55,706 nucleotides of DNA from Betaproteobacteria bacterium (GTDB taxonomy: Bacteria; Pseudomonadota; Gammaproteobacteria; Burkholderiales; UBA3065), in the NCBI GenBank assembly GCA_009927815.1, contig RFMI01000032.1, positions 1-55,706 of the forward strand, read 5' to 3'. A model generated the notes under the pieces. It was not told the origin of the DNA. It made no database searches and saw nothing but the letters and a program-made list of their open reading frames with translations. The position numbers and the translations under genes were made by a program. This document shows, one piece after another, positions 39,031 through 55,706 of the stretch. The stretch's first letter is position 1, and each line of letters begins with the position of its first letter.

Positions 39031-39032
39031 GC

Positions 39033-41484: not shown

Positions 41485-41612
41485 TCGGGCGCGGCGTCTT
41501 CTTCAATGAGGGCGCGAGCAGCGGCCTCGAGCCGTCGGGCTTGCCATGCGTCAGCCGCCAGCGCGAACAGGCCTAAGGCGTAGCTGATGACAATGGCGGT
41601 CAAGGCGGTCAT
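41481..41612 (-). CDS. ccmD: Heme exporter small subunit CcmD
   Basis: 43 aa MTALTAIVISYALGLFALAADAWQARR..; hydrophobic N-terminus with SY, charged tail; between ccmC and ccmE. Confidence 0.7.
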   Translation of the reverse strand: MTALTAIVISYALGLFALAADAWQARRLEAAARALIEEDAAPE

Positions 41613-41613
41613 G

Positions 41614-42340: not shown

Positions 42341-42391
42341 GACTCATATTCTAGCGTCCCTCGCGGGCTTGGCCCGGACAATCGCCAGCCA

Positions 42392-43756: not shown

Positions 43757-43770
43757 GGCGGAAAGGCCTA

Positions 43771-45087
43771 TCAGCGGGCCGGGGCAGGCTCGATCTGCAA
43801 GGGTACTGCCTCCTTGCCTACAGTCACCGGCGACTTCGCCGCCGACCAGTCACCGGGCTGGCGGATCGCGTTGCCGTTCATCGAGATGCGCGCTTCGACG
43901 GACACTTGCCGGAACTTCGACAGCTGCAATTGCGGACTCATGGCCTGCGTGTCGTCGAGTTGGAAAGGCAGCATGCGGCCGGCCACCAGATCAGCAACCG
44001 GGAGTCGCAGCACCGCCAAGGGCATCGGTGGGCCGTCCACCGCCTTGGCGAGAATGAAGAGCACGGCGGCGTCCGGGAGCGGCTGCTTTTTGAGCTGCTG
44101 GAGCGCTGCTGGACTGAGCGCCACTTGGCCGCGCACCACGGCGCTCGGGTCGGCGGGGCTGGCAGCTTGGGGTCTTGCGCCGGTGGTTGGTCCGGAGGCG
44201 GCAGGTTCGGGAGCGCCGGCGGGCGGTTGTTCGCCGAGTTGCGCGAGGATGTTGCCGATCTGTTGGTAGTCGGGCGACGCCGGCAGGAACTGGCTTTGCA
44301 GGGCTCGCCAGAGCTTGACAGCGTTGTCACGCTCGCCGGCCTGCATCGCTGCCGTTGCGGCAAGCGCCAGAGACTTTTGATGCTTCGGGTCGGACTTGAG
44401 TGCTTCCGCGACCAGTTCCATCGGCCGACCTGCCAGCTTTTCGCCTTGCATCATGGCCGTCGCGTCAGCCAAGTCGGCCAGCAGATCAGGGTGCCCGGGC
44501 GCCAGCCGCAGGGCTTGCTCCAACGCTTTTACGGCTTCGGGGTAGTTGCGTTGCAGGCCTCGCGACCGGGCCAAGATCACCCAACCCTCGAGGTTGTCCG
44601 GCTGCTCTTTAAGTTTGGCCTCGAGCGCTGCGATGCGCTCTTCGATCGAACCTTGCCCGCCGGGGTGGTTCTCGCCTGCTTTCGGCGGAGCTTCCCGAAT
44701 CAATACAGACGGCGTGCTGAAACCCCTAAACGCCAGCTTCATGGCCGGTTCATTGGGGTTGCCGATAAAGGCGTAAACGCTACCCGCGATGAGTACAACC
44801 GCCACCGGTATCCACGCAGAGTGGACCGTAATCCGGGTTGGTGCGGTCGACGGTGGGTCGCTGCGCTGGGCGGCGGCTTGGGATTGCCACTCCTCGATCA
44901 AGGTGGCACGCAGCGCCGGGTCGAGACTGGCGTCTTCGTCGATCTCTCGACGTCGCGCCACCATCACGGCCCACTCGGCAGAGTCATCGTTGGCGGGCAC
45001 ACGGCGTCCAGCGCGCGTCAGCGTCCACCACAGCACACAGGCGACAGCGGAAGCGATGAGGACGGTCAGGAGAATAAAGAGGAGCAT
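43771..45087 (-). CDS. ccmI: Cytochrome c maturation TPR protein CcmI/CycH
   Basis: Two N-terminal TM helices, PDNLEGWVILARS TPR, C-terminal GPPMPLAV..FQLDDTQAMSP..ARIS..G domain. Confidence 0.88.
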   Translation of the reverse strand: MLLFILLTVLIASAVACVLWWTLTRAGRRVPANDDSAEWAVMVARRREIDEDASLDPALRATLIEEWQSQAAAQRSDPPSTAPTRITVHSAWIPVAVVLIAGSVYAFIGNPNEPAMKLAFRGFSTPSVLIREAPPKAGENHPGGQGSIEERIAALEAKLKEQPDNLEGWVILARSRGLQRNYPEAVKALEQALRLAPGHPDLLADLADATAMMQGEKLAGRPMELVAEALKSDPKHQKSLALAATAAMQAGERDNAVKLWRALQSQFLPASPDYQQIGNILAQLGEQPPAGAPEPAASGPTTGARPQAASPADPSAVVRGQVALSPAALQQLKKQPLPDAAVLFILAKAVDGPPMPLAVLRLPVADLVAGRMLPFQLDDTQAMSPQLQLSKFRQVSVEARISMNGNAIRQPGDWSAAKSPVTVGKEAVPLQIEPAPAR

Positions 45088-45204: not shown

Positions 45205-45301
45205 TCGGGTAGATTTGAATTGGTTGTAGTGCACGAGGCGCGCGAGCTTTGTCGGCGCGGTGTCCAGAAAATCCGGCATTTTGAACATCCAGGGTAAGGC
45301 C

Positions 45302-46165
45302 ATGTTGCAAGAAAGCGTTTTGAGTCTTGGGGGGTTTCGTTACCTCAAGCTCGCGGCTTTGGTCGCGTTGGCCAGCCTGATCGCCTACATCGGGGACGAC
45401 CCGCGGACGGTGGCCTATGGGGGTACCGTTCTCGGGTACGCGCTCGGCATCATTGGTGCGCTGCTCATCGTTTGGCTGATCCTCTTCGGCGCTCGCAAGC
45501 GATCCTACCGTTCGAGTCTTGGAACCGTTCAGGGCTGGCTGTCTGCCCACATCTGGTTGGGTTTGTCGCTGCTTGTGGTGGCCACCTTGCATACCGGTTT
45601 CCAGTTCGGTATCAACCTTCACACCTTGGCCTACGCCGTGATGGTGGTGGTGATTGTTAGCGGCATCTGGGGTGTGACGGTGTACATGCGCAACCCCTCG
45701 CTGATGAGCGGTTTGGTCGGCGGGAAATCGCTGCAGCAGCACGGCGTGATGCTCGCCGAACTCGACGCCGAATCGCGGAATCTGTGTAAGGACATGGGCG
45801 ACGACATCAAGCGGCTGGTCGAGGCATCGGCGCACACGCCCATCGTTAATGGACTATTTGGCCGCTTTGGCGGGCCTGGCCGTTGTTCGACCGGCGTTGC
45901 GGTGGAGGCACTCAAGGCGATCGGTCTCCGCGGTGACAAAGCGGTGCGTGATTTGTACGCGGTGCAGGTGAAGCGCCAGGCGCAACTGCAACGCATGCGC
46001 GACTTCCTGCGGGTCAAGGCATGGACCGACGTATGGCTGATGTTTCACGTGCCGTTGTCGGTTGGCCTGATTGCTTTGCTGGCGGCGCACATCGTCGCCG
46101 TCCTCTTCTATTACAACGGCAACGTGCTGTTTGACGGCAGCACATTCTCCTGGAGCAGGGGCTGA
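45302..46165 (+). CDS. His-rich polytopic membrane protein, putative cytochrome b
   Basis: About 5-6 hydrophobic helices; WLSAHIWLG, LHTGF, LHTL, WLMFHVPLS, AAHI His motifs in or next to TMs. Confidence 0.7.
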   Translation: MLQESVLSLGGFRYLKLAALVALASLIAYIGDDPRTVAYGGTVLGYALGIIGALLIVWLILFGARKRSYRSSLGTVQGWLSAHIWLGLSLLVVATLHTGFQFGINLHTLAYAVMVVVIVSGIWGVTVYMRNPSLMSGLVGGKSLQQHGVMLAELDAESRNLCKDMGDDIKRLVEASAHTPIVNGLFGRFGGPGRCSTGVAVEALKAIGLRGDKAVRDLYAVQVKRQAQLQRMRDFLRVKAWTDVWLMFHVPLSVGLIALLAAHIVAVLFYYNGNVLFDGSTFSWSRG

Positions 46166-46167
46166 GC

Positions 46168-47760
46168 ATGAGCGGTCACACGCCTGAAGATCCGATTACG
46201 CTAGAGGTCCGCCGGCTGCAGCGTCCTATGGCGGGCCGCAGGCTGCTGTCGTGGCTGTTGTTTTTGGCGGGCGGTCTGGTCTTTCTCGTTGCGCCGCTTT
46301 TGGCTTCCTTGCACGGCGGTGATGCGGCGGCTCTGCGTGATCTGCCGGTGCTGGGGGCGATGTTCGCCGACGCGGCTGTCCAGGACGAGGCTCGCACCCT
46401 CGGCCGCCGCCCTGATCCGCACGCCACGCCCGACTTTGCCAAGGGCGATGCGGCCGGCAGTTATCAGCTTGCCGACCTGAGCAACTATCAAGCGGCGGCG
46501 CCCACGCTGATGGCGCTGGACCGCTGGTGGAATCCCGGCCCGCTGGCGTCTGCCCACCAGCCCTGGGCCAATGACTGTCGCGTTTGCCACAGTGCCGGCT
46601 TTGCTCAAGTCAAAGACGCCGATTGCCTGAGTTGCCACAAGGCGGTCAGTGATCACGTCGACCGTAAAGTGGTGCACGACGCCCGCTTGGATGTGCGGTG
46701 CGCCACCTGTCACCTTGACCACCAGGGCGCTTTTGCCTTGGCGGAGCAAAACAAGCACGCCGCCGGTCGCGATTGCGCCGACTGTCATGGCGATATCAAA
46801 AAGAGTTTTGCCAAGACCGAGACCCAGAACGTTCGCGATTTCGCCGACGAGCATCCCAACTTCCGGGTGCAGATCGCTCAGTCAGGCGAGCCAGGTGCTG
46901 GCGTTCGCGAGCTGCGGCGCGTGCGTTTGCCTGCCAAAGGGCAGCTCACAGAGCCGTCCAATCTGAAATTTCCGCATGATGTGCACGTCGCCAAGAAGGG
47001 CATCAGCAGCCCCGAGGGCAAGGTGGTGATGAAGTGCGCCAATTGCCACGAGCCCGACGCTAACGGCGTGGACTACAAGCCGGTCAATATGAAAGACCAT
47101 TGCCAAAGCTGCCACGCACTCAAGATGGAACCCAATCTGTCCAACCGTGAAGTACCGCACGGATCGGTGACCGAGGTGCTGAGCACTTTGGCCGAGTTCT
47201 ACAGCTTCGTCGGTAGCAGCGGTAGCGTGCCACGTGGCCCTGAGCCGCTGACCAAGACGATCGCCATCCAGCGCCCTGGCGAGCCGGATCGCGCGCCACA
47301 AAGCTTTGTACGGACTGGCGGCAGCGCTCAAGGTCGGGCCAGCGCCGCTGCGGTGGAGCTGTTCGAGAAGACCAGCTGCGTGATTTGCCACGAGGTCAGT
47401 CGCGTGGCTGGCCCGGGCAAGGCGGGCACGCCGGGCCGCGATTTGCCGCAGTGGAAGATCGCGGCGATCGCTCCCACCCACGTGTGGATGCCGAAATCGC
47501 CGTTTAGCCACGCCGCGCACACCAGTGCCAAGTGCGAGAGCTGTCACGCCGCGACTGAGTCCAAGAAGTCGAGCGATGTGCTGATGCCGGCTATCGACGG
47601 CTGCCGCGACTGCCATGCAGGCGCCAAGCCGGTGGCCGACAAGATCGTCTCCAATTGCAGCCTGTGCCACGGCTTCCATATTCCGGTAGCTAAACCCGAG
47701 GCTTCGCCAGCGAAGCCCTTGCAGAAGGTTGCTGCGGCAGCCGCCGGGGCGCGCCCGTGA
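46168..47760 (+). CDS. Membrane-anchored decaheme cytochrome c (cytochrome c3/c7-like motifs)
   Basis: 10 CxxCH: CRVCH, CLSCH, CATCH, CADCH, CANCH, CQSCH, CVICH, CESCH, CRDCH, CSLCH; N-terminal TM; FPHDVH and FSHAAH. Confidence 0.9.
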   Translation: MSGHTPEDPITLEVRRLQRPMAGRRLLSWLLFLAGGLVFLVAPLLASLHGGDAAALRDLPVLGAMFADAAVQDEARTLGRRPDPHATPDFAKGDAAGSYQLADLSNYQAAAPTLMALDRWWNPGPLASAHQPWANDCRVCHSAGFAQVKDADCLSCHKAVSDHVDRKVVHDARLDVRCATCHLDHQGAFALAEQNKHAAGRDCADCHGDIKKSFAKTETQNVRDFADEHPNFRVQIAQSGEPGAGVRELRRVRLPAKGQLTEPSNLKFPHDVHVAKKGISSPEGKVVMKCANCHEPDANGVDYKPVNMKDHCQSCHALKMEPNLSNREVPHGSVTEVLSTLAEFYSFVGSSGSVPRGPEPLTKTIAIQRPGEPDRAPQSFVRTGGSAQGRASAAAVELFEKTSCVICHEVSRVAGPGKAGTPGRDLPQWKIAAIAPTHVWMPKSPFSHAAHTSAKCESCHAATESKKSSDVLMPAIDGCRDCHAGAKPVADKIVSNCSLCHGFHIPVAKPEASPAKPLQKVAAAAAGARP

Positions 47761-49613
47761 TGAGTCGCGGTCTCAAGGGTGGTCTGGCGCTGATGCTGGC
47801 CTTGGCGGCGTCGCCGGCGTGGTCGGCGGCATGCCACTCGGTGAGTGCTGAGCCACAGGCGCTTTCGCAGACGGAGGTGGACGGCTTGGTCAAGACCACC
47901 GCAACGGTGGCGCGGCAGCTCAACCAAACCAAGGCCACCATTGCGGTCGTCGATCGCGTCGGCAATGTGCTGGCGGTCTGGCGCACTGGCGATGCGTTTG
48001 ATGTACGCATCCGCAGCGGCTTGGTCGCTAGTACGGCGTTTGGCGGATTCGGCTTGGAGAATGCGGTGTTGCCAAGTGCAGTGGGTGGCGATGCTCTGGC
48101 CGCCATTGCCAAGGCCGTCACGGGGGCCTATCTGTCGTCATCTGGCAATGCGTTCAGCACGCGTACGGCGAGCTTTATCGTGCAGAAGAACTTCATCCCG
48201 ACGATTCGCAACTTTCCTTCAGGGCCGCTGTTTGGCGTGCAGTTCAGCCAGCTGCCATGCGGCGATCTGGTGCAGAAGGGCGATTCTCTCGGCATCGGGC
48301 CGCGCCGTTCGCCGTTGGGCCTGTCGGCCGATCCGGGCGGATTCCCGCTGTACAAGAACGGTCGCGTGGTCGGTGGCATCGGCGTGGTGGTTGACGGCAG
48401 CGATTACGCACTCGACTTGAACCCGATTAACACTGATTACGACGTCGAGGAGGTGATTGCACAGGCTGGATCGAAGGCCTACGCCGCCCCAACCTGCATT
48501 CGCGCCGATCACATCACCGCCGGTGGCTTCAACCTGCGTTACTCGGACGCCGATAAGCGCCTGCCCAAGGCCCCAGCGATACAGTCCTTCGCAGGTGCGT
48601 ACATTGCCGTCACCGGTTATTTACCCACCGCGGCAGCGCGCGCGGGTCAGGCCTACGGCACGGCTTCGTCCGGCTATCAGTTGCAGGCTTCAGGGGACTT
48701 CGCGTCGCGCAGTGGCATGCTTTTGGTGGACAGCGGCGGGGCCAATCGGTATGCGCCGCGGGCCTCATTGGCACCGGCGAACGCCAGCGGTGGCTTGTCC
48801 GCGGGCGAAGTCACGACCCTCCTACAGCAGGCGCTAGGCGTTGCCAACCAGGCCCGCGCCCAGATTCGTCGCGCGCTCAACTCGCCGGCCGAGGTCACCA
48901 TCTCGGTGATCGACCGCGACGGTAACGTGCTTGGCCTGGTGCGCACGCCAGACGCCCCGGTGTTCGGCACCGACGTGTCCTTGCAGAAAGCGCGCACGGT
49001 GGCGTTTTTCTCTCGCACTGACGCCGCGACCCGCTTGCAAGCGCTTGGACAGTCCGCCTACGCCAGCAACGCCGTGGCCTTCTTTGGCAGCGGTGCATTG
49101 AGTGATGGCGTCGCCTTCTCCGACCGGGCCATCGGCAATATCGCTCGGCCGAATTTCCCTGACGGCATTGCCGGGCGTCCTCCGGGGCCTTTGTCCAAGC
49201 CTGAAGGCACGTGGAGCCCGTTCAATGACGGCCTGCAACTTGATCTGGTGGCGGGCAAGGTGCTCGATGCGCTCGTTGCAACTGGAATCAACAGCTGCAC
49301 AACGACAGCCGCCGGTATCGATAACGGCATCCAGATTTTCCCGGGAGCGGTGCCGATCTACCGCGGTTCGACTTTGATTGGCGCTATCGGTATTTCGGGT
49401 GACGGTGTCGACCAAGATGACATGATCGCGTCGCTCGGTCTGCAGCGTGCCTTCCTGGCACTCGGTGGCCGCTTTGGCACCGACCCCGGTCATGCCCCGC
49501 CGGCTATTCGCTCAGATCGGTTGGCGGTGCCAGGCCCGGGTACGTTGCGCTACGTGCAGTGCCCACAATCGCCCTTTATCAGCAGCCAGGCCCAAAATGT
49601 CTGCAACTTCTAG
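47757..49613 (+). CDS. Secreted protein with two GlcG/HbpS-like heme-binding domains
   Basis: Signal peptide; ATIAVVDRVGNVL..AIAKAVT..GGFPLYKNGRVVGGIGV and VTISVIDRDGNVL..QKART..GAVPIYRGSTLIGAIGISGDGVDQDD. Confidence 0.8.
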   Translation: MMSRGLKGGLALMLALAASPAWSAACHSVSAEPQALSQTEVDGLVKTTATVARQLNQTKATIAVVDRVGNVLAVWRTGDAFDVRIRSGLVASTAFGGFGLENAVLPSAVGGDALAAIAKAVTGAYLSSSGNAFSTRTASFIVQKNFIPTIRNFPSGPLFGVQFSQLPCGDLVQKGDSLGIGPRRSPLGLSADPGGFPLYKNGRVVGGIGVVVDGSDYALDLNPINTDYDVEEVIAQAGSKAYAAPTCIRADHITAGGFNLRYSDADKRLPKAPAIQSFAGAYIAVTGYLPTAAARAGQAYGTASSGYQLQASGDFASRSGMLLVDSGGANRYAPRASLAPANASGGLSAGEVTTLLQQALGVANQARAQIRRALNSPAEVTISVIDRDGNVLGLVRTPDAPVFGTDVSLQKARTVAFFSRTDAATRLQALGQSAYASNAVAFFGSGALSDGVAFSDRAIGNIARPNFPDGIAGRPPGPLSKPEGTWSPFNDGLQLDLVAGKVLDALVATGINSCTTTAAGIDNGIQIFPGAVPIYRGSTLIGAIGISGDGVDQDDMIASLGLQRAFLALGGRFGTDPGHAPPAIRSDRLAVPGPGTLRYVQCPQSPFISSQAQNVCNF

Positions 49614-51723
49614 GACCTTCGCCGGGGTGCGCCCGCGTTCAGCAGCGAGCGCCGTCGCGGCGTTGATGGGTCTCGCGGTCCAACCGCTGTGGGCGGACGA
49701 GGTCGCGCCAGCGCTTGGCCCCAACGACCACAACCCGGCCTATATTGCGCGCAAGACGGTCGAGCAGATCCAGGTGGTGGCTCCCATCCTGCGCCTCCGG
49801 CTCGAGCCAGATCTGGGTTCTTTGGTGGTTGGCGAGGCCGATCGGGGTCAGCTGTTCACGGTGCTCGAGCAGCGTGCTGACTGGTTCCGCGTGCGTATCA
49901 AGTCAGATCCCGAGACCTCGGCTTGGGCTTTGCGTGAGCCGGCTGAGTACGGCGACTCCACCTTCGACCTCATCTACGCCGCTGGCGACACCGGCTTTGC
50001 CGCCGAGGCGATTGGCGCCACTGAGCCGGGAACCCCGGCCATCGACGCGGCGCGACCCGCTGTTCCGCGTCGCGTGGTTACGCTGCCGCCGATCGACCCC
50101 GAGCAACTGCCGCCCCCGCAGGCCAATTTGCCGCGAGAGTCGGTGCCCATCCCCGACCGCTGGCGGCTGATGCAGGCACTTGGTTTCAAGTTCCCGTGGT
50201 ACGACCCGTACAACCAGAATGTGCTGAAGGGCGATATTCCGGTGCACGAGATCGGCGAGGAGTGGTTCTTCACCTTCACTGGCATCTCGGACTCGCTGGC
50301 GGAATTCCGTTCGACGCCGTTGCCCGTGTCGCAACAGATCGGCTTTCGCCCGGACGCCAACAACATCTACGGCCGCTATGACCAGCGGATCCTCGCGCAG
50401 AACCTGATCTTGAGTTTTGGGCTGGTCAAAGGCAACACAACCTACAAGCCGCCCGAACTGGAATTCCGGTTCGTCCCGGTGATCAACTACGTCAACGCAC
50501 GCCTGCCCGAGTCGGGTTTGTTGCGGGTTAATCCGCAAGAAGGCCTGTCGCGCGAGACCAGCTTCGTCGGCATTCAGGAAGCGTTTGTCGACTACCACTT
50601 GCGCAACGTGTCGGATCGCTACGACTTCGATTCGCTGCGCGTGGGCATTCAGCCCTTCACCAGCGACTTCCGCGGATTCCTGTTTCAGGACACGCAGTTT
50701 GGCGTGCGCCTGTTCGGCAACCGCCACAACAACGTCTACCAGTACAACCTGGCGTGGTTCCGACGCGTCGAGAAGGACACCAATTCGGGGCTTAACGACA
50801 TCACCCGACGTCTGCGGGACGATGACATTTTTGCTGCCAACGTCTACCGCCAAGACTTTCCGTTCACGGGCATGACGTCGCAGGGCACGGTTATCCACAA
50901 CCGCAACAATGAGGATTCGTTCCGCTACGACACGAACGGCTTCTTGGTGCGGCCGTCGCTGCTGGGCGACGCAAGGCCGCGCAAGTACCAGGTGACCTAC
51001 CTCGGGGCGACTTTTGACGGCCACACCGGCTTCGTGTTGCCCAAGCTGCGTCTTAACGTCAGCAGTTCGACCTATTTGGCGCTGGGCCATGACGACCACG
51101 GCGCGATCGCCGAGAAGCCGCAGGACATCCGCGCCTTCTTCCATGCCACCGAGGTGTCACGAGACTTCAGCTGGATCCGCCTTCGGGGCAGTTTCCTCTA
51201 CGCCAGCGGCGACAAGAACCCGTACGACGGTCGTGCGACTGGGTTCGATGCCATCTTCGAGAACCCCCAATTTGCCGGTGCCGACACCAGCTATTTCATT
51301 CGCCAAGGCATTCCGCTGATTGGCGGGGGCGGGGTTGCCCTGTCGGGCCGCAACGGCTTGCTGGTGTCCCTGCGCTCGAGCAAAGACCAAGGACAGTCAA
51401 ACTTCGTCAACCCAGGGCTACTTTTGCTGGGCATGGGCGCCGACTTTGACGTCAAACCGGAGCTGCGCCTGACTGCCAACGTTAACCACTTGCGCTTCGA
51501 CGAGACCGCCGTGTTGGGCGCCCTGCGCAATGAGCGCAACCCTGACAACTCGATTGGCATGGACTATTCGGTTGGCGCTCAGTGGCGGCCGTTCTATAAC
51601 CAGAACGTGATCATCAATGCCTCAATGTCGATGCTCTCGCCAGGCCAGGGCTTGAAAGACCTCTATGGCGACCGCAAGACACCGTTCTACTCTGGCTTCA
51701 TCAACGCCATCCTGACGTACTGA
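49597..51723 (+). CDS. Putative outer-membrane beta-barrel with N-terminal SH3b-like domain
   Basis: Signal peptide (ATG 49597); LRLRLEPD..GQLFTVLEQRADWFRV SH3b-like; Pro-rich linker; alternating beta-strand pattern; C-terminal FINAILTY. Confidence 0.7.
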   Translation: MSATSRTFAGVRPRSAASAVAALMGLAVQPLWADEVAPALGPNDHNPAYIARKTVEQIQVVAPILRLRLEPDLGSLVVGEADRGQLFTVLEQRADWFRVRIKSDPETSAWALREPAEYGDSTFDLIYAAGDTGFAAEAIGATEPGTPAIDAARPAVPRRVVTLPPIDPEQLPPPQANLPRESVPIPDRWRLMQALGFKFPWYDPYNQNVLKGDIPVHEIGEEWFFTFTGISDSLAEFRSTPLPVSQQIGFRPDANNIYGRYDQRILAQNLILSFGLVKGNTTYKPPELEFRFVPVINYVNARLPESGLLRVNPQEGLSRETSFVGIQEAFVDYHLRNVSDRYDFDSLRVGIQPFTSDFRGFLFQDTQFGVRLFGNRHNNVYQYNLAWFRRVEKDTNSGLNDITRRLRDDDIFAANVYRQDFPFTGMTSQGTVIHNRNNEDSFRYDTNGFLVRPSLLGDARPRKYQVTYLGATFDGHTGFVLPKLRLNVSSSTYLALGHDDHGAIAEKPQDIRAFFHATEVSRDFSWIRLRGSFLYASGDKNPYDGRATGFDAIFENPQFAGADTSYFIRQGIPLIGGGGVALSGRNGLLVSLRSSKDQGQSNFVNPGLLLLGMGADFDVKPELRLTANVNHLRFDETAVLGALRNERNPDNSIGMDYSVGAQWRPFYNQNVIINASMSMLSPGQGLKDLYGDRKTPFYSGFINAILTY

Positions 51724-51745
51724 CCTGATTCGGCGACCCCTAAAC

Positions 51746-54700
51746 GTGTTCAAGCTGCCCCTTCGATCCCTGCCGACCAACGCCCTGATGCGCGGAGCCC
51801 TGTTGCGCGGCGCGTCCGTGCTGGCCTTGCTAGTGCCGGCGTTGCTGGGCGCAGCTTTGATGTACGAGCCGGCGAGTGCCTCCGAACGCAAGCTCACCGA
51901 GCGTCACTACGTGATGGCCCCCTCCGCGCCCAAGGCGCAGACCTGGGCGCAGGCCAAATCGAAGTCTGATGGCTGCATGACCTGCCACACCGAGACCGAC
52001 CAGCACACCATGCACGCCAACCCTGGCGTGGTGCTGGGCTGTACCGACTGTCACGGTGGCGACAACAGCATCCGCCGTGCTGAGAAGGGTCCCGAAGCCG
52101 AGCGCAAGCACCCGGCCTACGAGCGGGCGATGGAACTGGCGCACATCCTGCCGCGCGACGAGCATCTGTGGCAGGGTTCGCGCAACCCGGAGGGCAGCTA
52201 CGCTCGTCTCAACAAGGAGCACGCGGCTTTCGTTCGCTTCATCAACCCGGGCGATTTGCGCGTGGCGCGCGAAGCCTGCGGCGCCTGCCATCTGCCGATC
52301 ATCCAGGCGCAAGAACGCAGCTTGATGAGCACGTCCAGCATGCTCTGGGGCGGCGCTGCCTATAACAACGGCATCCTGCCGTTCAAGCGCTACATGCTCG
52401 GCGAGGCCTACACGCAAGACGGCACCGCAGCGGCCATCGTCAACCCGGTCAAGCCTGACGAAGATCTTTACGTCTTCAAGGGCGTGCTCGAGAAGCTCTA
52501 CCCGCTGCCGGCCTGGGAGACCATCCCGCCGGGCGATATCTTCCGTGTGTTCGAGCGTGGCGGTCGCGTCATCAACAGCAGCTTCCCCGAAATCGGCCTG
52601 CCCAACAGCAGCGGCACGTTGCAAAAGCTCGACGAGCCGGGCCGTCCCGACATCAAGCAGAGCAACCGCGGCCCGGGAACTGGCAACCGCATCTCGGTGC
52701 CGGTCATCAACCTGACCAAAACTCGCCTCAACGACCCGCACCTGTGGTTCCTCGGCACCAACGACAACCCGGGTGACTACCGCTCGTCCGGTTGCACCGC
52801 GTGCCACGTGGTCTACGCCAACGATCGTCAGCCCGAACACAGCGGGCCCTACGCGCAGTTCGGCAACATGGGCCGCACGCAGACCAAAGATCCGACTATC
52901 CCCAGGGATGAGTCCGGACATCCGCTCAAGCACGAGTTCACTCGTGCGATGCCGAGTTCGCTGTGTATGAACTGCCACATGCACCAGCCGAACATTTACA
53001 TCAACTCGTTCTACGGCAACATCCAGTACGACTACGAGCCGGACGCGCCGCGCATGTTCCCGGCCAAGCAGCACTATCCGACCGACGCCGAGATTCGCGA
53101 GGTCAACCAGCGCAATCCGGAAGAAGCGGTGATTCGCGGCAATTGGCGCGACCGTGACTTCCTCAACGACCTTTGGCTCAAAAACGGCGAGATGAAGGAC
53201 ACCCAGTTCGCCGACTACCACGGCCACGGCTGGGCGTTCCGCGCAGTGTTCAAGCGCAACCGGAAGGGCAATCTGCTGGACAAAGTTGGCAACATCGTCA
53301 GCGACGATGATCCGGACAAGTTCAAGAAGGCGGTGCACATGGCCTCGATCCACATGGATCTGGGTATGCACTGCGTCGACTGCCACTTCTCGCAAGACAT
53401 GCACGGCAACGGCCACATCTATGGCGAAGTGGCCGCCGCGGTAGAGATCGATTGCGCCGACTGCCACGGCACCGCCAAGAACTACCCGACCCTGCACACC
53501 AGCGGTCCGGCGTCGCGTCCGGGCGGCATGGACCTGACCCTGCTCAAGACCCAGGATGGTCGCAAGCGCTTCGAGTGGCGCGACGGCAAGCTGTATCAGC
53601 GCGCTGCGCTCGACCCCAACAAAGAGTGGGAAATGTCGCTGGTGAAGGACACGGTCAATCCCAAGCACCCGCAGTACAACGAAAAGGCGGCGCGGGCCAA
53701 GCTCATGGCTGCCGGTGAGGACGGCCGCAACGGCAAGTGGGGTCAGGGTGTCGACAAGCTGGCCCACGACAACGACAAGATGTTGTGCTTCACCTGCCAC
53801 TTGAGCTGGACCACCAGTTGTGCGGGCTGTCACTTGCCGATTCAGGCCAACTGGAAAACCGAACGCAACCACTTTGAGGGCGGCGAGACACGCAACTACG
53901 CCACCTACAACGTGCAAGTCGCGCGCGACGACATGTTCTTCCTTGGCAAGCACGGCCCGGTCAAGAACAGCCGCATCGCACCGTTCCGCTCGAGTTCAGC
54001 GTTGGTGCTGTCCTCCATGAACAGTAACCGCGAGCGCATCTACTACCAGCAGCCGCCGATCGCTGCCAGCGGCTTCTCCAGTCAGGCGTTTGCGCCGCAT
54101 TACCCGCACACCGAGCGCAAGGAAGAGACCAAGACCTGTACCGACTGCCACGTCTCGCGTGACAACGACAACAACGCAATCATGGCGCAGCTGCTGTTGC
54201 AGGGTACTAATTTCGTCAACTTCGTCGGCCGCTATGCTTGGGTTGGCGCCGAGAAGGACGTCGAGTCGGTGGGTGTGACCGAGTGGGATGAGCCGCAGGC
54301 GGTGCTGGGTTCCTACCTGCAGAAGTACGCCTACCCCGACTGGTATGCGGAGCACCAGGCGGCCGGTCGCGAGATCGTTGACACCCCGCGCCACGAAGCG
54401 GCCAATCACTTGGCGACGCCGAGTGGGGATGCGGCGCGCTGTCTGCAGATGCGCGGCGAGTACCTGTTCGTTGCCGAGGGCAAGGGTGGCTTCCGCGTGT
54501 ACGACATCGCCGGCAACGGCAACAAGGGTGTGAGCCAGCGCATCATCACTGCGCCGTATTCGCCGCTGGGGCAAGACACGCATGTGCCGTCGAAGAACGC
54601 CACCTGCGTTGCGCTGCCAACCAACCAGCCGATTGCGCCGACGCGCAACGAGGGCGACCTGATGCGCAAGGTCAACCTGGAGCAGCCGTTCCATCCGATC

Positions 54701-55618
54701 TACCACTACGCCTTCGTGGTCGATGCCGAGGAGGGTCTGTACGCAGTCAACCTCGACACCTTCGCCGACGGTGAGGCGCGCAACAATTTCCTCAAGCGTG
54801 CCGTGACGTGGAATCCGAATGGCATGCTGAACGGCGCGCGGCACATCGTTGTGGCGGGCCACTACGCCTACATCACCACGCCGAAGGGTCTTGAGATCGT
54901 CGACCTTGACGACCCGCTGCACCCCAAGCCCCTCGCCTCCATCCCGCTGAACGACGCCCGGGCGAGCGCGGTGCAGTTCCGCTATGTCTACGTGACGACT
55001 GCGGAAGGCTTGCGCGTGGTCGACATCACCAATATGAAGCCGAAGCTTTTGCCGGCGGTGGTACCGCTTAAGGATGCGCGCCGCGTCTACCTGGCCCGTA
55101 CCTATGCCTATGTGGCGGCCGGCGCCGAGGGTCTGGCGATCGTCGACATCGAGAAGGCCGATAAGCCGCGCGTGTATCAAATGTTCGACGCCGACGGCAA
55201 GATCAACGATGCCCAGGACGTGATTGTCGGCAGCACCAACGCATCGTTGTTCGCCTACATCGCTGATGGCCGCAATGGCCTCAAGGTGCTGCAACTGACC
55301 TCACCTGAAAGCCAGCCCGGCTTCTACGGTTTCTCGCCAGAGCCCAAGCCTGAGCTGATCGCTTGGCGCAAGACCACCTCGCGGGCCTTGGCGCTGAGTA
55401 AAGGTCTCGACCGTGACCGTGCCGTGGACGAGACCGGTGGGCAGATCGCCATCGTCGGCCGTATCGGCGCACGGCCGTTCACCCGCAAGGAGATGGACAA
55501 GATGTACTTGAATCCCAAGGGTGAGCTGTGGACGGTAACCGACCGCGGCCAGTCGGGCGACTATGTGCCGCGCAAGGCGCCAACCGCCGGGGCCAGTGAC
55601 AAACGAGGCAAGCCATGA
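51746..55618 (+). CDS. Large exported decaheme cytochrome c with C-terminal LVIVD-repeat beta-propeller
   Basis: 10 CxxCH: CMTCH, CTDCH, CGACH, CTACH, CMNCH, CVDCH, CADCH, CFTCH, CAGCH, CTDCH; LVIVD-like repeats YLFVAEG..FRVYDI, YAYITT..LEIVDL, YVYVTT..LRVVDI, YAYVAAG..LAIVDI. Confidence 0.88.
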   Translation: MFKLPLRSLPTNALMRGALLRGASVLALLVPALLGAALMYEPASASERKLTERHYVMAPSAPKAQTWAQAKSKSDGCMTCHTETDQHTMHANPGVVLGCTDCHGGDNSIRRAEKGPEAERKHPAYERAMELAHILPRDEHLWQGSRNPEGSYARLNKEHAAFVRFINPGDLRVAREACGACHLPIIQAQERSLMSTSSMLWGGAAYNNGILPFKRYMLGEAYTQDGTAAAIVNPVKPDEDLYVFKGVLEKLYPLPAWETIPPGDIFRVFERGGRVINSSFPEIGLPNSSGTLQKLDEPGRPDIKQSNRGPGTGNRISVPVINLTKTRLNDPHLWFLGTNDNPGDYRSSGCTACHVVYANDRQPEHSGPYAQFGNMGRTQTKDPTIPRDESGHPLKHEFTRAMPSSLCMNCHMHQPNIYINSFYGNIQYDYEPDAPRMFPAKQHYPTDAEIREVNQRNPEEAVIRGNWRDRDFLNDLWLKNGEMKDTQFADYHGHGWAFRAVFKRNRKGNLLDKVGNIVSDDDPDKFKKAVHMASIHMDLGMHCVDCHFSQDMHGNGHIYGEVAAAVEIDCADCHGTAKNYPTLHTSGPASRPGGMDLTLLKTQDGRKRFEWRDGKLYQRAALDPNKEWEMSLVKDTVNPKHPQYNEKAARAKLMAAGEDGRNGKWGQGVDKLAHDNDKMLCFTCHLSWTTSCAGCHLPIQANWKTERNHFEGGETRNYATYNVQVARDDMFFLGKHGPVKNSRIAPFRSSSALVLSSMNSNRERIYYQQPPIAASGFSSQAFAPHYPHTERKEETKTCTDCHVSRDNDNNAIMAQLLLQGTNFVNFVGRYAWVGAEKDVESVGVTEWDEPQAVLGSYLQKYAYPDWYAEHQAAGREIVDTPRHEAANHLATPSGDAARCLQMRGEYLFVAEGKGGFRVYDIAGNGNKGVSQRIITAPYSPLGQDTHVPSKNATCVALPTNQPIAPTRNEGDLMRKVNLEQPFHPIYHYAFVVDAEEGLYAVNLDTFADGEARNNFLKRAVTWNPNGMLNGARHIVVAGHYAYITTPKGLEIVDLDDPLHPKPLASIPLNDARASAVQFRYVYVTTAEGLRVVDITNMKPKLLPAVVPLKDARRVYLARTYAYVAAGAEGLAIVDIEKADKPRVYQMFDADGKINDAQDVIVGSTNASLFAYIADGRNGLKVLQLTSPESQPGFYGFSPEPKPELIAWRKTTSRALALSKGLDRDRAVDETGGQIAIVGRIGARPFTRKEMDKMYLNPKGELWTVTDRGQSGDYVPRKAPTAGASDKRGKP

Positions 55619-55706
55619 CAACCGCCATTCATTCCATCCTGACGTCCGTACTGGGCGCTGCTGCGGCGCTGATGCTGGTTGCAGCGCCGGTGCAGGCCCG
55701 GACGAC
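55615..55706 (+). CDS. Exported protein, 5' end (partial)
   Basis: ATG overlaps the previous stop; MTTAIHSILTSVLGAAAALMLVAAPVQA looks like a Sec signal peptide; runs off the window. Confidence 0.6.
   Translation, partial: MTTAIHSILTSVLGAAAALMLVAAPVQART

What the first reader, a model, noticed from the sequence alone, without database searches (positions are those of the whole stretch)
45302..55706. Uncharacterised envelope-spanning multiheme operon: a candidate non-Mtr/Pio porin-cytochrome conduit in a phototroph
Seen: six tightly packed, mostly overlapping genes. They encode a His-rich inner-membrane protein, a TM-anchored decaheme cytochrome, a tandem GlcG/HbpS protein, an SH3b beta-barrel, a 1290-aa decaheme LVIVD protein and a further exported protein. 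Known: trans-envelope electron transfer (MtrCAB/CymA, PioAB, MtoAB) uses a quinone-linked membrane protein, a periplasmic multiheme, a porin and an outer multiheme. Inference: this operon has one part per compartment, but I recognise no MtrA/PioA/MtrB-type motifs, so it may be an independent conduit or a large redox enzyme complex. Direction and substrate are unknown.
Basis: partly seen in the sequence, partly recalled or inferred. Interest (0 to 1): 0.85.

Follow-up and report, generated by a model that had tools for sequence, protein, structure and literature searches.

The report
NAD(P)H-fed multiheme chain with outer-membrane channel
This is a real, widely conserved and uncharacterised gene cluster that probably carries electrons from the cytoplasm to about 25 hemes in the periplasm, beside a narrow outer-membrane channel, so it looks more like a periplasmic reductase than an Mtr-type wire through the outer membrane.

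Summary
The genes are there as described, with three corrections. The membrane protein is not His-rich. The SH3 domain is marginal. The sixth gene encodes a c554-like pentaheme cytochrome that continues on contig C50.

A seventh gene follows on C50. It encodes a cytoplasmic FAD/NAD(P)-type, 2x cNMP-binding, 4Fe-4S protein.

At least 594 species genomes carry the LVIVD decaheme. Gene order is conserved across Alpha-, Beta- and Gammaproteobacteria, including cultured strains.

The barrel is an 18-strand AlgE/OprD-type channel, not an MtrB-type sheath.

Four components are distant homologues of PtdD/E/F/G of the uncharacterised Ptd (PCC4-like) cluster: the membrane protein, the anchored decaheme, the c554-like cytochrome and the cNMP/Fe-S protein. 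The membrane protein also carries the published PCC3/PCC4 motif signature. The LVIVD decaheme, the barrel and the tandem GlcG protein have no Ptd counterpart.

In other genomes the membrane protein is fused to NAD(P)H-type flavoproteins. This points to outward electron flow from NAD(P)H rather than a quinone link.

Best reading (0.5): a cNMP-gated periplasmic multiheme reductase with its own substrate channel. The substrate is unknown.

It is a new variant of a known, still putative, kind.

The parts
45260..46165 (+). Inner-membrane protein (301 aa from GTG 45260; 287 aa from ATG 45302). Predicted di-heme-b, ferric-reductase-domain-like electron carrier across the inner membrane.
   Evidence: Five hydrophobic segments, two WX3HX13H motifs (residues 93 and 259) and SGIWG at 134. 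The same motifs occur in 35 of 35 (WX3HX13H x2) and 34 of 35 (SGXXG) homologues. This is the signature given for the PCC3/PCC4 IMPs in PMC5566968, section 17 passages. Pfam Ferric_reduct scores 21.7 bits, below its cut-off of 28. BLASTP to the PtdF-like protein of L128: 26% over 225 aa, E 1e-8.
46168..47760 (+). Membrane-anchored periplasmic decaheme c-type cytochrome (530 aa).
   Evidence: 10 CXXCH. One hydrophobic segment at 30-48 after an Arg-rich N-terminus. Pfam Cytochrome_C7 and Cytochrom_c3_2. 44 of 47 homologues have 10 CXXCH. Both alphaproteobacterial homologues tested carry an N-terminal FHA domain, which places the N-terminus in the cytoplasm. Weak similarity to the PtdG-like decaheme, E 4e-7.
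47757..49613 (+). Exported tandem GlcG/HbpS-like protein (618 aa). Possibly a lipoprotein. Accessory role unknown.
   Evidence: Pfam HbpS-like 76.4 bits, two stretches. PDB sequence relatives: 2a2l, the formaldehyde sensor EfgA (6bws) and a putative extracellular heme-binding protein (4nkp). Of the 12 homologue N-termini printed, six beta/gamma ones have a clear lipobox followed by a Gly-rich tether and four alpha ones an ordinary signal peptide. Always directly upstream of the barrel gene.
49597..51723 (+). Outer-membrane 18-strand beta-barrel (708 aa from ATG 49597). It has a signal peptide, a marginal SH3_3 domain and a conserved periplasmic segment.
   Evidence: AlphaFold2 model m3bbbed4c616c: 18 long strands between residues 223 and 707, barrel blocks mostly pLDDT 80-95. 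Foldseek top hit AlgE 3rbh, E 1.2e-15, TMt 0.65, followed by the OccD/OccK/OprD family. VIA-align over 48,161 chains: AlgE 4xnk Z 26.9, then OpdQ 24.1, MOMP 23.5, OccAB3 23.2. The C-terminus ends in ...ILTY.
51746..55618 (+). Decaheme c-type cytochrome (about 800 aa heme domain) fused to a C-terminal seven-bladed LVIVD beta-propeller (1290 aa). Candidate terminal reductase.
   Evidence: 10 CXXCH. 77 of 78 homologues have 10. Pfam LVIVD 61 bits. Model m1304bd369f4e: propeller pLDDT above 90, heme domain 40-70. The propeller matches the YVTN S-layer propeller 1l0q (Z 29.2) and lactonase-type propellers. Mean column identity is 61% over 57 sequences from three classes. It has a signal peptide and no lipobox. 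No PDB relative by sequence.
55615..55706 (+). First 30 codons (signal peptide) of a c554-like pentaheme cytochrome, cut by the contig end. The remainder lies on G000 contig C50 (10385-11638, minus strand). An 813-aa flavo-Fe-S gene follows at C50:7925-10363 (minus strand).
   Evidence: Translation of the window's end. The C50 end reads in frame and matches the same position of the intact L004 orthologue. 4 CXXCH and 1 CX4CH. Pfam Cytochrome_C554. 44 of 45 homologues have 4 CXXCH plus one CX3-4CH. A contig of an RNA library runs 4,281 nt past the window's end (record 24); I did not see its sequence.
38918..45087 (-). Context: cytochrome c maturation (System I) genes, divergent from the operon. 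They are not shown to be dedicated to it.
   Evidence: Pfam: CcmF (38918-41074), a CcmA/CcmB-type ORF (42392-43756) and CycH/CcmI (43771-45087). The ORF at 41609-42340 gave no Pfam match. In L015 the three ORFs downstream of the LVIVD gene look like ccmA/B/C by their N-termini; that is my reading and was not tested.

Best explanation
The window holds five and a bit genes of a conserved seven-gene system built from two modules.

Module A is an electron-export chassis.
- A cytoplasmic protein combines a Pyr_redox (FAD/NAD(P)H) domain, two cNMP-binding domains and a 4Fe-4S dicluster. Its gene lies on contig C50.
- It passes electrons to a five-helix, di-heme-b membrane protein of the ferric-reductase-domain type.
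- That protein hands them to a decaheme cytochrome anchored in the inner membrane and facing the periplasm.

Module B is the working head.
- A c554-like pentaheme cytochrome.
- A decaheme cytochrome fused to a seven-bladed LVIVD propeller.
- A tandem GlcG/HbpS protein, a lipoprotein in many relatives.
- An 18-strand AlgE/OprD-type outer-membrane channel.

I infer that electrons flow outward, from NAD(P)H through 2 b-hemes and up to 25 c-hemes. They end on an oxidised substrate that reaches the periplasm through the dedicated channel, where the LVIVD decaheme reduces it. Cyclic nucleotide made by a neighbouring CHASE2 cyclase probably gates the flavoprotein.

Shown: the parts, their conservation, the homology of the chassis to PtdD/E/F/G, the fusions, and the barrel type.
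Inferred: the direction of flow, the order of carriers, periplasmic location of the LVIVD cytochrome, and cNMP gating.
Unknown: the substrate. Candidates to test are Fe(III) chelates, reactive O/N/Cl species, and S or Se oxyanions.
For: 1. Conservation.
- At least 594 candidate stretches in species genomes encode a relative of the LVIVD cytochrome.
- 7970 of the 8000 candidates scored reach E <= 1e-10 in the protein collection. The named rows among the 120 listed read 'hypothetical protein', 'LVIVD repeat-containing protein', 'multiheme c-type cytochrome', 'Cytochrome c-552/4 domain-containing protein' or 'Uncharacterized protein'.
- In 80 fetched loci, many cut by contig ends, the families occur as follows: 78 LVIVD, 65 barrel, 59 GlcG2, 47 anchored decaheme, 45 c554-like, 39 flavo-Fe-S and 35 IMP.
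- They form two blocks: flavoFeS-IMP-decaheme and (c554)-GlcG2-barrel-LVIVD(-c554).

2. Cytoplasmic NAD(P)H-type input.
- The flavo-Fe-S gene has Pyr_redox_2/3, 2x cNMP_binding and Fer4 domains.
- In G018 it is fused in one 1135-aa frame to the IMP: 47% identity over 793 aa, then 31% over 317 aa. G042 has a similar 1118-aa frame.
- In G175, and by length and N-terminus in G187, a different NAD(P)H flavoprotein is fused to a related IMP next to a 10-heme cytochrome. It is rubredoxin-reductase-like with a BFD 2Fe-2S domain.
- The ptd-like locus L128 has an FNR-type FAD/NAD/2Fe-2S protein plus a cNMP/4Fe-4S protein.

3. Topology.
- The IMP has five hydrophobic segments with basic loops on the inside.
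- Both alphaproteobacterial decaheme homologues tested carry an N-terminal FHA domain.

4. The ferric-reductase-domain family moves electrons from cytoplasmic NAD(P)H outward. This is established knowledge. The HX13H heme-b ligands are discussed in PMC5566968.

5. The barrel has 18 strands and is AlgE/OprD-like.

6. A CHASE2 adenylate/guanylate cyclase gene lies convergent to the flavo-Fe-S gene in G000 and in L004. It is present in 19 of 80 loci, and a metallophosphoesterase gene in 23 of 80.

7. Contigs of four lake metatranscriptome libraries cover 28-30 of 30 bins and bridge the gene junctions. DNA carry-over in those libraries is not excluded.
Against: - No catalytic site was identified. 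The heme domain of the model has low confidence (pLDDT about 40-70), and its fold was effectively untested, because every listed structural match falls on the propeller.
- LVIVD repeats are typical of surface proteins, as cited in the Tenderiales preprint passage.
- G000 has three secretin matches and three T2SS-F-type genes, each matched in two halves. Secretion of the LVIVD cytochrome to the cell surface is therefore not excluded.
- Conserved acidic and basic residues of the barrel are about balanced (my count). I cannot name a substrate class.
- The direction of electron flow and NAD(P)H use rest on domain content and fusions, not on any assay.
- The flavo-Fe-S gene is on another contig. 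The join of C34 and C50 is inferred from reading frame and orthologue order, not from sequence overlap.
- He et al. 2017 proposed a quinone link for the related IMPs, and that is not excluded.
Confidence: 0.5

Rival explanations
1. It is a true extracellular electron-transfer conduit. The LVIVD decaheme would be exported to the cell surface. Electrons would cross the outer membrane either with the help of the barrel and the GlcG lipoprotein, or by a diffusible shuttle that passes the channel. They would reach insoluble or extracellular acceptors such as Fe(III)/Mn(IV) minerals or humics.
For: - The cluster has one part per compartment and three multiheme cytochromes.
- LVIVD repeats are associated with cell surfaces (passage in bioRxiv 10.1101/2022.05.06.490989).
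- The propeller's best structural match is an archaeal S-layer propeller.
- G000 encodes secretins and T2SS-F-type proteins.
- The authors of PCC3/PCC4 and Ptd proposed this role for the related clusters.
Against: - The barrel has 18 strands and resembles AlgE/OprD substrate channels. It does not resemble a wide cytochrome sheath.
- The LVIVD cytochrome has no lipobox.
- T2SS genes are linked in only 5 of 80 loci.
- The named carriers belong to genera I know as aerobic heterotrophs. That physiology is recalled, not tested.
- Amino acids per heme are 53 and 129, which is not wire-like. The published PCC3 range is 22-39.
Confidence: 0.2
2. Electrons flow inward. A periplasmic or imported donor, such as Fe(II), Mn(II) or a reduced S or N compound, is oxidised by the LVIVD decaheme. 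The electrons pass via the anchored decaheme and the di-heme-b protein to the quinone pool. In this phototroph they could then feed the photosynthetic chain.
For: - He et al. 2017 proposed this model for the PCC3 and PCC4 IMPs: quinone-active, cytochrome-b-like.
- The window belongs to a phototroph with a reaction-centre cytochrome gene.
- Limnobacter, a carrier, is known as a thiosulfate oxidiser (recalled).
Against: - The IMP is regularly partnered with, and in other genomes fused to, cytoplasmic NAD(P)H-type flavoproteins of three different architectures.
- Pushing electrons from typical periplasmic donors to NAD(P)+ through a plain two-heme wire against the membrane potential is unfavourable (inference from bioenergetics).
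- Most named carrier genera in the 80 loci are, as far as I recall, neither phototrophs nor known lithotrophs.
Confidence: 0.15
3. It is mainly a sensing device. The periplasmic heme chain would report envelope redox state to the cytoplasm. The cNMP-binding flavo-Fe-S protein and the neighbouring CHASE2 cyclase would then form a signalling circuit rather than a metabolic one.
For: - Two cNMP-binding domains in the flavo-Fe-S protein.
- A CHASE2 cyclase gene beside it in G000 and L004, and in 19 of 80 loci. A metallophosphoesterase gene in 23 of 80.
- An FHA domain on both alphaproteobacterial decahemes tested.
- GlcG-family relatives include sensors (EfgA).
Against: - Twenty-five c-hemes, a dedicated outer-membrane channel and a 1290-aa protein kept at about 60% identity across classes are expensive for a sensor, especially in a 1.76-Mb genome.
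- No output domain such as a kinase or DNA-binding domain was seen in the core genes.
Confidence: 0.1

Closest known systems
ptdABCDEFG cluster (bioRxiv 10.1101/2023.11.21.568154). From its published parts I judge it equivalent to 'PCC4' of He et al. 2017 (PMC5566968). Both are putative and their function is unknown.
   Same: An exemplar found here (L128, genome G395) has the published Ptd domain set. Four of our components are its distant homologues.
- IMP ~ PtdF: 26% over 225 aa, E 1e-8, with both WX3HX13H motifs.
- Residues 441-815 of the flavo-Fe-S protein ~ PtdE: 28% over 409 aa, E 6e-39.
- c554-like cytochrome (L004 orthologue) ~ PtdD: E 1e-8.
- Anchored decaheme ~ PtdG: E 4e-7.
Both clusters also include an outer-membrane barrel gene.
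   Different: - The head differs. PtdA is a pentaheme, NrfA-COG protein with a beta-sandwich. Here it is replaced by a decaheme-LVIVD propeller protein; hhalign gives 24% probability, on one heme motif only.
- The barrels are unrelated by profile (0.1%).
- A tandem GlcG protein is added.
- The NAD(P)H module is a Pyr_redox domain fused to the PtdE-like part, instead of a separate FNR-type PtdC.
- Ptd was reported from marine or saline organisms. This variant also occurs in named freshwater MAGs and in genera I know from soil.
PCC3 of He et al. 2017 (PMC5566968; sections 15 and 16 read, passages of sections 17 and 18 seen)
   Same: An inner-membrane protein of about 300 aa with five helices, SGXXG and two WX3HX13H motifs. 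BLASTP to a PCC3-type IMP (L127): 36% over 87 aa, E 2e-8. Both have a gene set spanning inner membrane, periplasm and outer membrane.
   Different: PCC3 cytochromes are low-complexity 'wires'. Their median heme counts are 34 and 21, with 22-39 aa per heme, and their porins have up to 42 strands. The loci I fetched have 21-24 and 46 CXXCH. Here there are 10+10+5 hemes, 53 and 129 aa per heme, and an 18-strand barrel.
MtrCAB / PioAB / MtoAB porin-cytochrome complexes
   Same: The general idea is shared: multiheme cytochromes and an outer-membrane barrel encoded together.
   Different: - The DmsE/MtrA-family model scores 32.7 bits against a cut-off of 192.2.
- The MtrC/MtrF domain model scores 21.1 bits, below its cut-off of 30, and only in the anchored decaheme.
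- The barrel is AlgE-like with 18 strands.
- Electron input is probably NAD(P)H, not quinol via CymA (inference).
Ferric-reductase-domain electron exporters (NOX, FRE, STEAP, MsrQ of MsrPQ)
   Same: A two-heme-b transmembrane wire with paired His ligands on two helices, coupled to a cytoplasmic NAD(P)H flavoprotein. Fused forms exist. MsrPQ likewise feeds a periplasmic reductase (recalled).
   Different: Pfam Ferric_reduct scores 21.7 bits, below its cut-off of 28. The protein has five rather than six helices. The flavoprotein is of the Pyr_redox type, with Fe-S clusters and cNMP domains. The acceptor is a chain of c-type cytochromes.
AlgE / OprD (Occ) family outer-membrane channels
   Same: The fold: AlgE Z 26.9 with 368 of 421 residues aligned, OpdQ Z 24.1, and Foldseek E 1e-15. 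The Pfam Alginate_exp match is weak.
   Different: Sequence identity is only 12-13%. Pfam scores 18.8 bits against a cut-off of 25.2, and 4 of 48 homologues match. There is an extra periplasmic N-terminal region of about 200 aa. The genetic context is cytochromes, not polysaccharide export.
ExtM (NCBIfam NF040943, selenite/tellurite reduction operon cytochrome)
   Same: A 54-residue stretch around a paired CXXCH motif matches (residues 531-583).
   Different: 63.3 bits against a cut-off of 800. It is not a member.

Membership tests
MtrCAB/PioAB/MtoAB | Periplasmic decaheme of the MtrA/DmsE/PioA family | tested here: not met
   NCBIfam TIGR03508 (DmsE family decaheme) scores 32.7 bits against a cut-off of 192.2 for the 530-aa decaheme. 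There is no match for the 1290-aa one.
MtrCAB/PioAB/MtoAB | Large MtrB/PioB-type barrel that sheathes the cytochrome (26 strands; recalled) | tested here: not met
   The model has 18 long strands. Best fold matches are AlgE and OprD-family channels. The Pfam scan at E <= 0.01 lists only SH3_3 and Alginate_exp.
MtrCAB/PioAB/MtoAB | Outer-membrane lipoprotein decaheme of the MtrC/OmcA type | tested here: not met
   No MtrC/MtrF domain match in the LVIVD cytochrome. The anchored decaheme scores 21.1 bits, below the cut-off of 30. The LVIVD cytochrome has no lipobox.
PCC3/PCC4-type inner-membrane protein (He et al. 2017) | About 300 aa, five TM helices, SGXXG on helix 4, WX3HX13H on helices 3 and 5 | tested here: met
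   301 aa, five hydrophobic segments, WX3HX13H at residues 93 and 259, SGIWG at 134. The definition comes from PMC5566968 section 17 passages. The WX3HX13H motifs occur in 35 of 35 homologues.
PCC3 (He et al. 2017) | Very heme-rich, low-complexity extracellular and periplasmic cytochromes (22-39 aa per heme) and a very large porin | tested here: not met
   53 and 129 aa per heme, and an 18-strand barrel.
Ptd / PCC4 | PtdE (cNMP + 2x 4Fe-4S), PtdF (FRD-like IMP), PtdG (decaheme) and PtdD (c554-like tetraheme) | tested here: met
   BLASTP against the Ptd-type locus L128 gives E 6e-39, 1e-8, 4e-7 and 1e-8. PtdE- and PtdD-like genes lie on contig C50. The PtdD comparison used the L004 orthologue.
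Ptd / PCC4 | PtdA pentaheme with beta-sandwich, PtdB porin and a separate FNR-type PtdC | tested here: not met
   hhalign of A2 against PtdA-like: probability 24%, 37 columns on one heme motif. A1 against PtdB-like: probability 0.1%. No BLASTP match to PtdC-like.
Ferric reductase transmembrane domain (PF01794) | Profile match over the gathering score; four His ligands in two HX13H pairs | tested here: inconclusive
   21.7 bits against a cut-off of 28. Both HX13H pairs are present.
Alginate_exp / AlgE-like barrels (PF13372) | Profile match and an 18-strand barrel fold | tested here: inconclusive
   The fold criterion is met: Z 26.9, rmsd 3.0, 368 aligned. The profile scores 18.8 bits against a cut-off of 25.2, and 4 of 48 homologues match at E <= 0.01.
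LVIVD repeat (PF08309) | Profile match over the gathering score; beta-propeller | tested here: met
   61 bits against a cut-off of 20.2. Seven-bladed propeller, Z 29.2 to 1l0q.
HbpS-like / GlcG (PF03928) | Profile match over the gathering score | tested here: met
   76.4 bits against a cut-off of 25, two stretches.
ExtM (NF040943) | Equivalog score of 800 bits or more | tested here: not met
   63.3 bits, over 54 residues only.

The most novel reading that the evidence does not exclude
Many obligately aerobic Proteobacteria of lakes, soils and seas may carry a previously unrecognised class of respiratory-chain-independent machine. It would be powered by NAD(P)H and gated by a cyclic nucleotide, and it would export electrons through about 27 hemes to a periplasmic or outer-membrane-proximal decaheme-propeller enzyme served by its own channel. 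Its job in oxic water could be reductive acquisition of Fe or Mn, or turnover of photochemically produced oxidants. That would give a molecular basis for 'extracellular' redox activities of ordinary heterotrophs that so far have none.
Probability: 0.25. Interest if true: 0.85.

Novelty: new variant of a known kind. Interest (0 to 1): 0.62.

Why it matters
- The cluster is common. At least 594 species genomes carry it, 7 of 400 sampled Pseudomonadota have a full-length copy, and thousands of protein clusters belong to the family.
- It is highly conserved, and the named rows among the 120 relatives listed carry only generic names.
- It sits in organisms not thought of as electroactive. Several are cultured and, from recall rather than test, genetically tractable: Limnobacter, Sphingobium, Novosphingobium, Sphingomonas, Janthinobacterium and Duganella.
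- It is found in contigs of lake metatranscriptome libraries.
- It is retained in a 1.76-Mb streamlined phototroph genome, which argues for real value to the cell.
- The chassis (flavo-Fe-S, FRD-like IMP, decaheme) is shared with Ptd/PCC4. Its IMP type also occurs in PCC3, and it exists fused to NAD(P)H flavoproteins. This changes the working model for all of these putative 'porin-cytochrome' clusters, from quinone-linked metal oxidation to NAD(P)H-driven electron export.
- The cultured carriers make that model directly testable.

Tried and rejected
- Complex prediction (barrel residues 150-708 with the LVIVD propeller): no verdict, with scores 0.00, 0.56 and 0.00. This says nothing either way.

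- Structure searches with the whole 1200-residue model of the LVIVD cytochrome. All listed hits fall on the propeller, so the heme domain's fold remains effectively untested.

- MtrB did not appear among the 50 Foldseek rows or the 50 VIA rows shown for the barrel. I record this absence here only.

- PDB sequence searches found nothing significant for the two decahemes, the barrel and the c554-like protein.

- ESM Atlas search with the heme domain: only unnamed multiheme clusters.

- I looked by eye for a Fur or CRP box in the 45088-45301 intergenic region. I saw only a weak inverted repeat (TGTAACAG...CTGTCACA). The promoter and terminator scans were at or below chance level.

- Localisation could not be settled from secretion genes. 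G000 has secretin and T2SS-F matches.

- Two 12-heme proteins of about 800 aa matched residues 538-738 of the LVIVD cytochrome (G350, G164). Their neighbourhoods gave no functional lead.

- A paper hit on 'DUF336' (PMC9230427) was a false lead; the text says DUF3365.

- Literature: nine searches found no paper describing a decaheme-LVIVD/GlcG cluster. Subscription-only papers are not covered. The supplementary tables of PMC5566968 and of the ptd preprint list the carrier genomes and could include this variant.

Full report
WHAT IS IN THE SEQUENCE

The window is the whole of contig C34 of a 1.76-Mb assembly of 140 contigs, rated 94% complete. From 45260 to its end the + strand carries a tight gene row.

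- A 301-aa membrane protein, 45260-46165. An ATG lies at 45302.
- A 530-aa protein, 46168-47760.
- A 618-aa protein, 47757-49613.
- A 708-aa protein from the ATG at 49597 to 51723.
- A 1290-aa protein, 51746-55618.
- A sixth ORF whose ATG at 55615 overlaps the previous stop. It is cut after 30 codons by the contig end.

Gaps and overlaps between the genes are +2, -4, -17, +22 and -4 nt.

The 530-aa and 1290-aa proteins each have exactly ten CXXCH motifs. The others have none. Pfam finds two HbpS-like (GlcG) stretches in the 618-aa protein and LVIVD repeats in the 1290-aa protein. It also finds a borderline SH3_3 domain and a sub-threshold Alginate_exp match in the 708-aa protein.

Three details need correcting. 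The membrane protein has only 7 His. The SH3 domain is marginal, and only 3 of 48 homologues match it. The sixth product is itself a cytochrome.

THE OPERON CONTINUES ON ANOTHER CONTIG

In the closest intact relatives (L004 from Limnobacter alexandrii, and L003), two genes follow the LVIVD gene.

- A gene of about 450 aa for a c554-like cytochrome.
- A gene of about 820 aa encoding Pyr_redox (FAD/NAD(P)), two cNMP-binding domains and a 4Fe-4S dicluster.

Searching the window's own genome with the L004 flavoprotein gives one strong match on contig C50 (56% identity, E 3e-304). The end of C50 reads, in frame, the rest of the c554-like gene. It starts at the same position of the L004 orthologue at which the window stops.

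That remainder is 418 aa, with four CXXCH and one CX4CH, and it matches Pfam Cytochrome_C554. The flavo-Fe-S gene is 813 aa. A 5,922-nt contig of an RNA library does run 4,281 nt past the window's end, but I did not see its sequence.

CONSERVATION

Of these, 594 encode a relative of the LVIVD cytochrome, and 80 loci were kept.

The named carriers come from all three classes.
- Limnobacter, Oceanibacterium, Sphingobium, Sphingomonas and Novosphingobium.
- Croceicoccus, Tsuneonella, Rhizorhabdus and Sphingoaurantiacus.
- Many MAGs of Caulobacterales, Lysobacterales and Burkholderiales.

The protein collection holds at least 7970 relatives at E <= 1e-10, of the 8000 candidates scored. The named rows among the 120 listed read 'hypothetical protein', 'LVIVD repeat-containing protein', 'multiheme c-type cytochrome', 'Cytochrome c-552/4 domain-containing protein' or 'Uncharacterized protein'. 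Janthinobacterium, Duganella and Undibacterium are among the carriers.

I clustered the ORFs of the 80 loci, many of which are cut by contig ends. The families and the number of loci holding them are as follows.

| Family | Loci (of 80) |
|---|---|
| LVIVD cytochrome | 78 |
| Barrel | 65 |
| GlcG2 | 59 |
| Anchored decaheme | 47 |
| c554-like | 45 |
| Flavo-Fe-S | 39 |
| IMP | 35 |
| Metallophosphoesterase | 23 |
| CHASE2 adenylate/guanylate cyclase | 19 |
| T2SS GspF | 5 |

The last three identifications rest; the GspF label is my reading of the protein's N-terminus, not a Pfam result.

The genes form two blocks. Block A is flavoFeS-IMP-decaheme. Block B is (c554)-GlcG2-barrel-LVIVD(-c554). 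The blocks are either co-directional and adjacent, or convergent and a few kb apart.

Heme counts are fixed.
- 77 of 78 LVIVD proteins have 10 CXXCH.
- 44 of 47 anchored decahemes have 10.
- 44 of 45 c554-like proteins have 4 CXXCH plus one CX3-4CH.

The LVIVD protein keeps 61% mean column identity over 57 sequences from three classes.

THE BARREL

An AlphaFold2 model built on 48 homologues has mean pLDDT 69.8, with barrel blocks mostly 80-95. It shows 18 long strands between residues 223 and 707.

Foldseek against the PDB puts the alginate exporter AlgE first (E 1.2e-15, TMt 0.65), followed by OccD/OccK/OprD channels, sucrose porin and chitoporin. An independent all-against-representatives alignment agrees: AlgE Z 26.9 (rmsd 3.0, 368 aligned), OpdQ 24.1, MOMP 23.5 and OccAB3 23.2.

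These are 18-strand substrate channels. MtrB-type sheaths are much wider (26 strands; recalled, not tested). This is the main reason to doubt cytochrome insertion.

The barrel interior is highly conserved, with about equal numbers of invariant acidic and basic residues. I therefore cannot infer the charge of the substrate.

THE LVIVD CYTOCHROME

The model of residues 58-1257 has pTM 0.72. The C-terminal seven-bladed propeller is confident (pLDDT above 90). The heme domain is poor (about 40-70).

Every listed fold match lies on the propeller: the YVTN S-layer propeller 1l0q at Z 29.2, lactonase-type propellers at Z 27-29, and hydrazine synthase beta at Z 25.2 among many others. Nothing can be said about the heme domain's fold.

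Other points:
- There is no PDB relative by sequence.
- The ExtM match is a 54-residue heme motif, 63 bits against a cut-off of 800.
- The protein has an ordinary signal peptide and no lipobox.
- The propeller has few conserved His, so a His-ligated metal centre of the N2O-reductase kind seems unlikely (inference).

THE CHASSIS AND ITS RELATIVES

The membrane protein has five hydrophobic segments, WX3HX13H at residues 93 and 259, and SGIWG at 134. All 35 homologues keep both His motifs, and 34 of 35 keep SGXXG. This is exactly the signature that He et al. 2017 gave for the conserved inner-membrane proteins of their putative PCC3 and PCC4 clusters. They likened those proteins to the ferric-reductase domain with two b hemes (PMC5566968; sections 15 and 16 read, passages of 17 and 18 seen).

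A 2024 preprint names a 'ptdABCDEFG' operon (bioRxiv 10.1101/2023.11.21.568154; passages seen). Its parts are:
[quoted passage not shown] - a tetraheme (PtdD);
- a cNMP plus two 4Fe-4S protein (PtdE);
- a ferric-reductase-like membrane protein (PtdF);
- a decaheme (PtdG).

From its parts I take it to be the same thing as PCC4.

To test the relationship I searched 400 sampled genomes of the phylum with the membrane protein and with the LVIVD cytochrome.
- Seven of the 400 have a full-length LVIVD cytochrome, and all seven have a strong IMP match.
- Five more have a strong IMP match (E <= 1e-34) but no LVIVD match at E <= 1e-5.
- Eleven have weak IMP matches (E 1e-5 to 1e-9).

I looked at four of those five. 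They carry block A without an adjacent block B. One of the four (G001) ends at its contig end shortly after the decaheme gene. In G018 and G042 the flavo-Fe-S protein and the IMP form a single frame of 1135 and 1118 aa.

I looked at seven of the eleven weak matches.
- Two are Ptd/PCC4-type. G395 (locus L128) is complete, with 5-, 4- and 10-heme proteins. G205 is partial.
- Three are PCC3-type, with an IMP plus cytochromes of 21-24 and 46 hemes.
- Two have a different flavoprotein fused to an IMP, followed by a decaheme. The flavoprotein is rubredoxin-reductase-like with a BFD-type 2Fe-2S domain (Pfam for G175 only).

Pfam confirmed the Ptd domain set of L128. BLASTP of our proteins against L128 gave the following.

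| Our protein | L128 protein | Result |
|---|---|---|
| IMP | PtdF-like | E 1e-8 |
| Flavo-Fe-S residues 441-815 | PtdE-like | E 6e-39 |
| c554-like (L004 orthologue) | PtdD-like | E 1e-8 |
| Anchored decaheme | PtdG-like | E 4e-7 |
| Barrel | any | no match |
| GlcG protein | any | no match |
| LVIVD cytochrome | PtdD-like | one short match (E 0.002, 51 aa) |

Profile comparisons confirmed that the heads are unrelated: 24% probability on one heme motif, and 0.1%. The cluster therefore shares an electron-supply chassis with Ptd/PCC4 and an IMP type with PCC3, but has its own head.

DIRECTION OF ELECTRON FLOW (INFERRED)

Three different NAD(P)H-type flavoprotein architectures are encoded beside or fused to this IMP family. 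A fusion places the Fe-S domain at the cytoplasmic N-terminus of the IMP. Both alphaproteobacterial anchored decahemes tested carry a cytoplasmic N-terminal FHA domain. This fixes their topology as N-in with the hemes outside.

Ferric-reductase-domain proteins carry electrons from cytoplasmic NAD(P)H outward (established knowledge). Outward electron movement is also favoured by the membrane potential.

I therefore read the path as follows: NAD(P)H, FAD, 4Fe-4S, two b hemes, anchored decaheme, c554-like pentaheme, LVIVD decaheme, then the substrate. The order of the periplasmic carriers is a guess.

The cNMP domains may gate the flow. A CHASE2 cyclase gene lies convergent to the flavo-Fe-S gene in G000 and in L004. 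Metallophosphoesterase genes that could be cNMP phosphodiesterases occur in 23 of 80 loci. That role is my reading and was not tested.

EXPRESSION

Twenty public runs from 14 coded studies hold half or more of the stretch's sampled words. All are labelled lake-water or freshwater metagenomes. Six of them are metatranscriptome libraries holding 54-79%.

Contigs of four such libraries cover 28-30 of 30 bins of 43000-55706. They bridge the IMP/decaheme, GlcG/barrel and barrel/LVIVD junctions.

Contigs give no strand or expression level, and DNA carry-over is possible. This is a hint of transcription in lake water, not proof.

VERDICT

The 'porin-cytochrome conduit' and 'quinone-linked' parts are not supported. 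'Uncharacterised' is right as far as I could search, but the chassis belongs to a family of putative clusters already noted in print in 2017 and 2024.

The best-supported mechanism is an NAD(P)H-fed, probably cNMP-gated, periplasmic multiheme reductase with a dedicated outer-membrane substrate channel (confidence 0.5). The rivals are a true extracellular conduit (0.2), inward donor oxidation (0.15) and a sensor (0.1).

Novelty: a new variant of a known, still putative, kind. Interest: 0.62.

Noticed in passing
window 47761: Contigs of two RNA libraries (X15, X16) follow the window up to 47761, one base after the stop of the anchored decaheme gene. They then continue with unrelated, AT-richer sequence containing a ribosome-binding-site-like GGAG and an ATG (table 7). 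A related strain apparently has something else at the boundary between block A and block B.
   Followed up: no
window 35773-38019 and 29720-31219: A GAF-GAF-PAS adenylate/guanylate cyclase gene and a 499-aa metallophosphoesterase gene lie 7-15 kb upstream of the operon. This may be relevant because the operon's flavo-Fe-S protein has two cNMP-binding domains.
   Followed up: no
G000 contig C50 (locus L130) 403-7902: Four genes lie convergent to the flavo-Fe-S gene: a TPR protein, a CHAT-domain protein, a CHASE2 adenylate/guanylate cyclase (897 aa) and a ShlB/POTRA outer-membrane protein. In L004 the CHASE2 cyclase is followed by a FecR-domain protein instead.
   Followed up: partly
window 8156-17214 and 32706-33995: Photosynthesis genes are present: a protochlorophyllide-reductase subunit, BchH, a BchM/PucC-like ORF and the reaction-centre cytochrome c subunit. 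The genome is only 1.76 Mb at 94% completeness, so this is a streamlined freshwater phototroph.
   Followed up: no
L111 (G018) 6880-10287; L114 (G042) 7350-10706: The flavo-Fe-S protein and the IMP are fused in one 1118-1135-aa frame and followed by an 8-9-CXXCH cytochrome. No barrel, GlcG or LVIVD genes lie nearby. Block A can therefore stand alone.
   Followed up: partly
L123 (G175) 8374-11922; L124 (G187) 5338-8771: A rubredoxin-reductase-like flavoprotein with a BFD-type 2Fe-2S domain is fused to a related IMP. It is followed by a 10-heme cytochrome of about 475 aa, two monoheme proteins and two more small ORFs. I did not annotate these by any tool.
   Followed up: partly
L009 3467-5221; L011 18204-19991: The anchored decaheme of alphaproteobacterial relatives carries an N-terminal FHA domain (about 30 bits, cut-off 20.7). 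The window's shorter protein lacks it. This hints at phospho-threonine-dependent control.
   Followed up: partly
L003 1775-3735: In this MAG the barrel gene is split into two ORFs (1775-2980 and 2974-3735). The cause could be a frameshift, a pseudogene or an assembly error.
   Followed up: no
L009 5262-6197: An extra 311-aa exported protein with a biotin-lipoyl/HlyD-like barrel-sandwich domain sits between the anchored decaheme and GlcG genes of Oceanibacterium.
   Followed up: no
L131 (G350) 9044-11425; L132 (G164) 8177-10741: These are stand-alone 12-CXXCH cytochromes of about 800 aa without a propeller. They share 36-37% identity with residues 538-738 of the LVIVD cytochrome. Each is followed by two small exported proteins.
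   Followed up: partly
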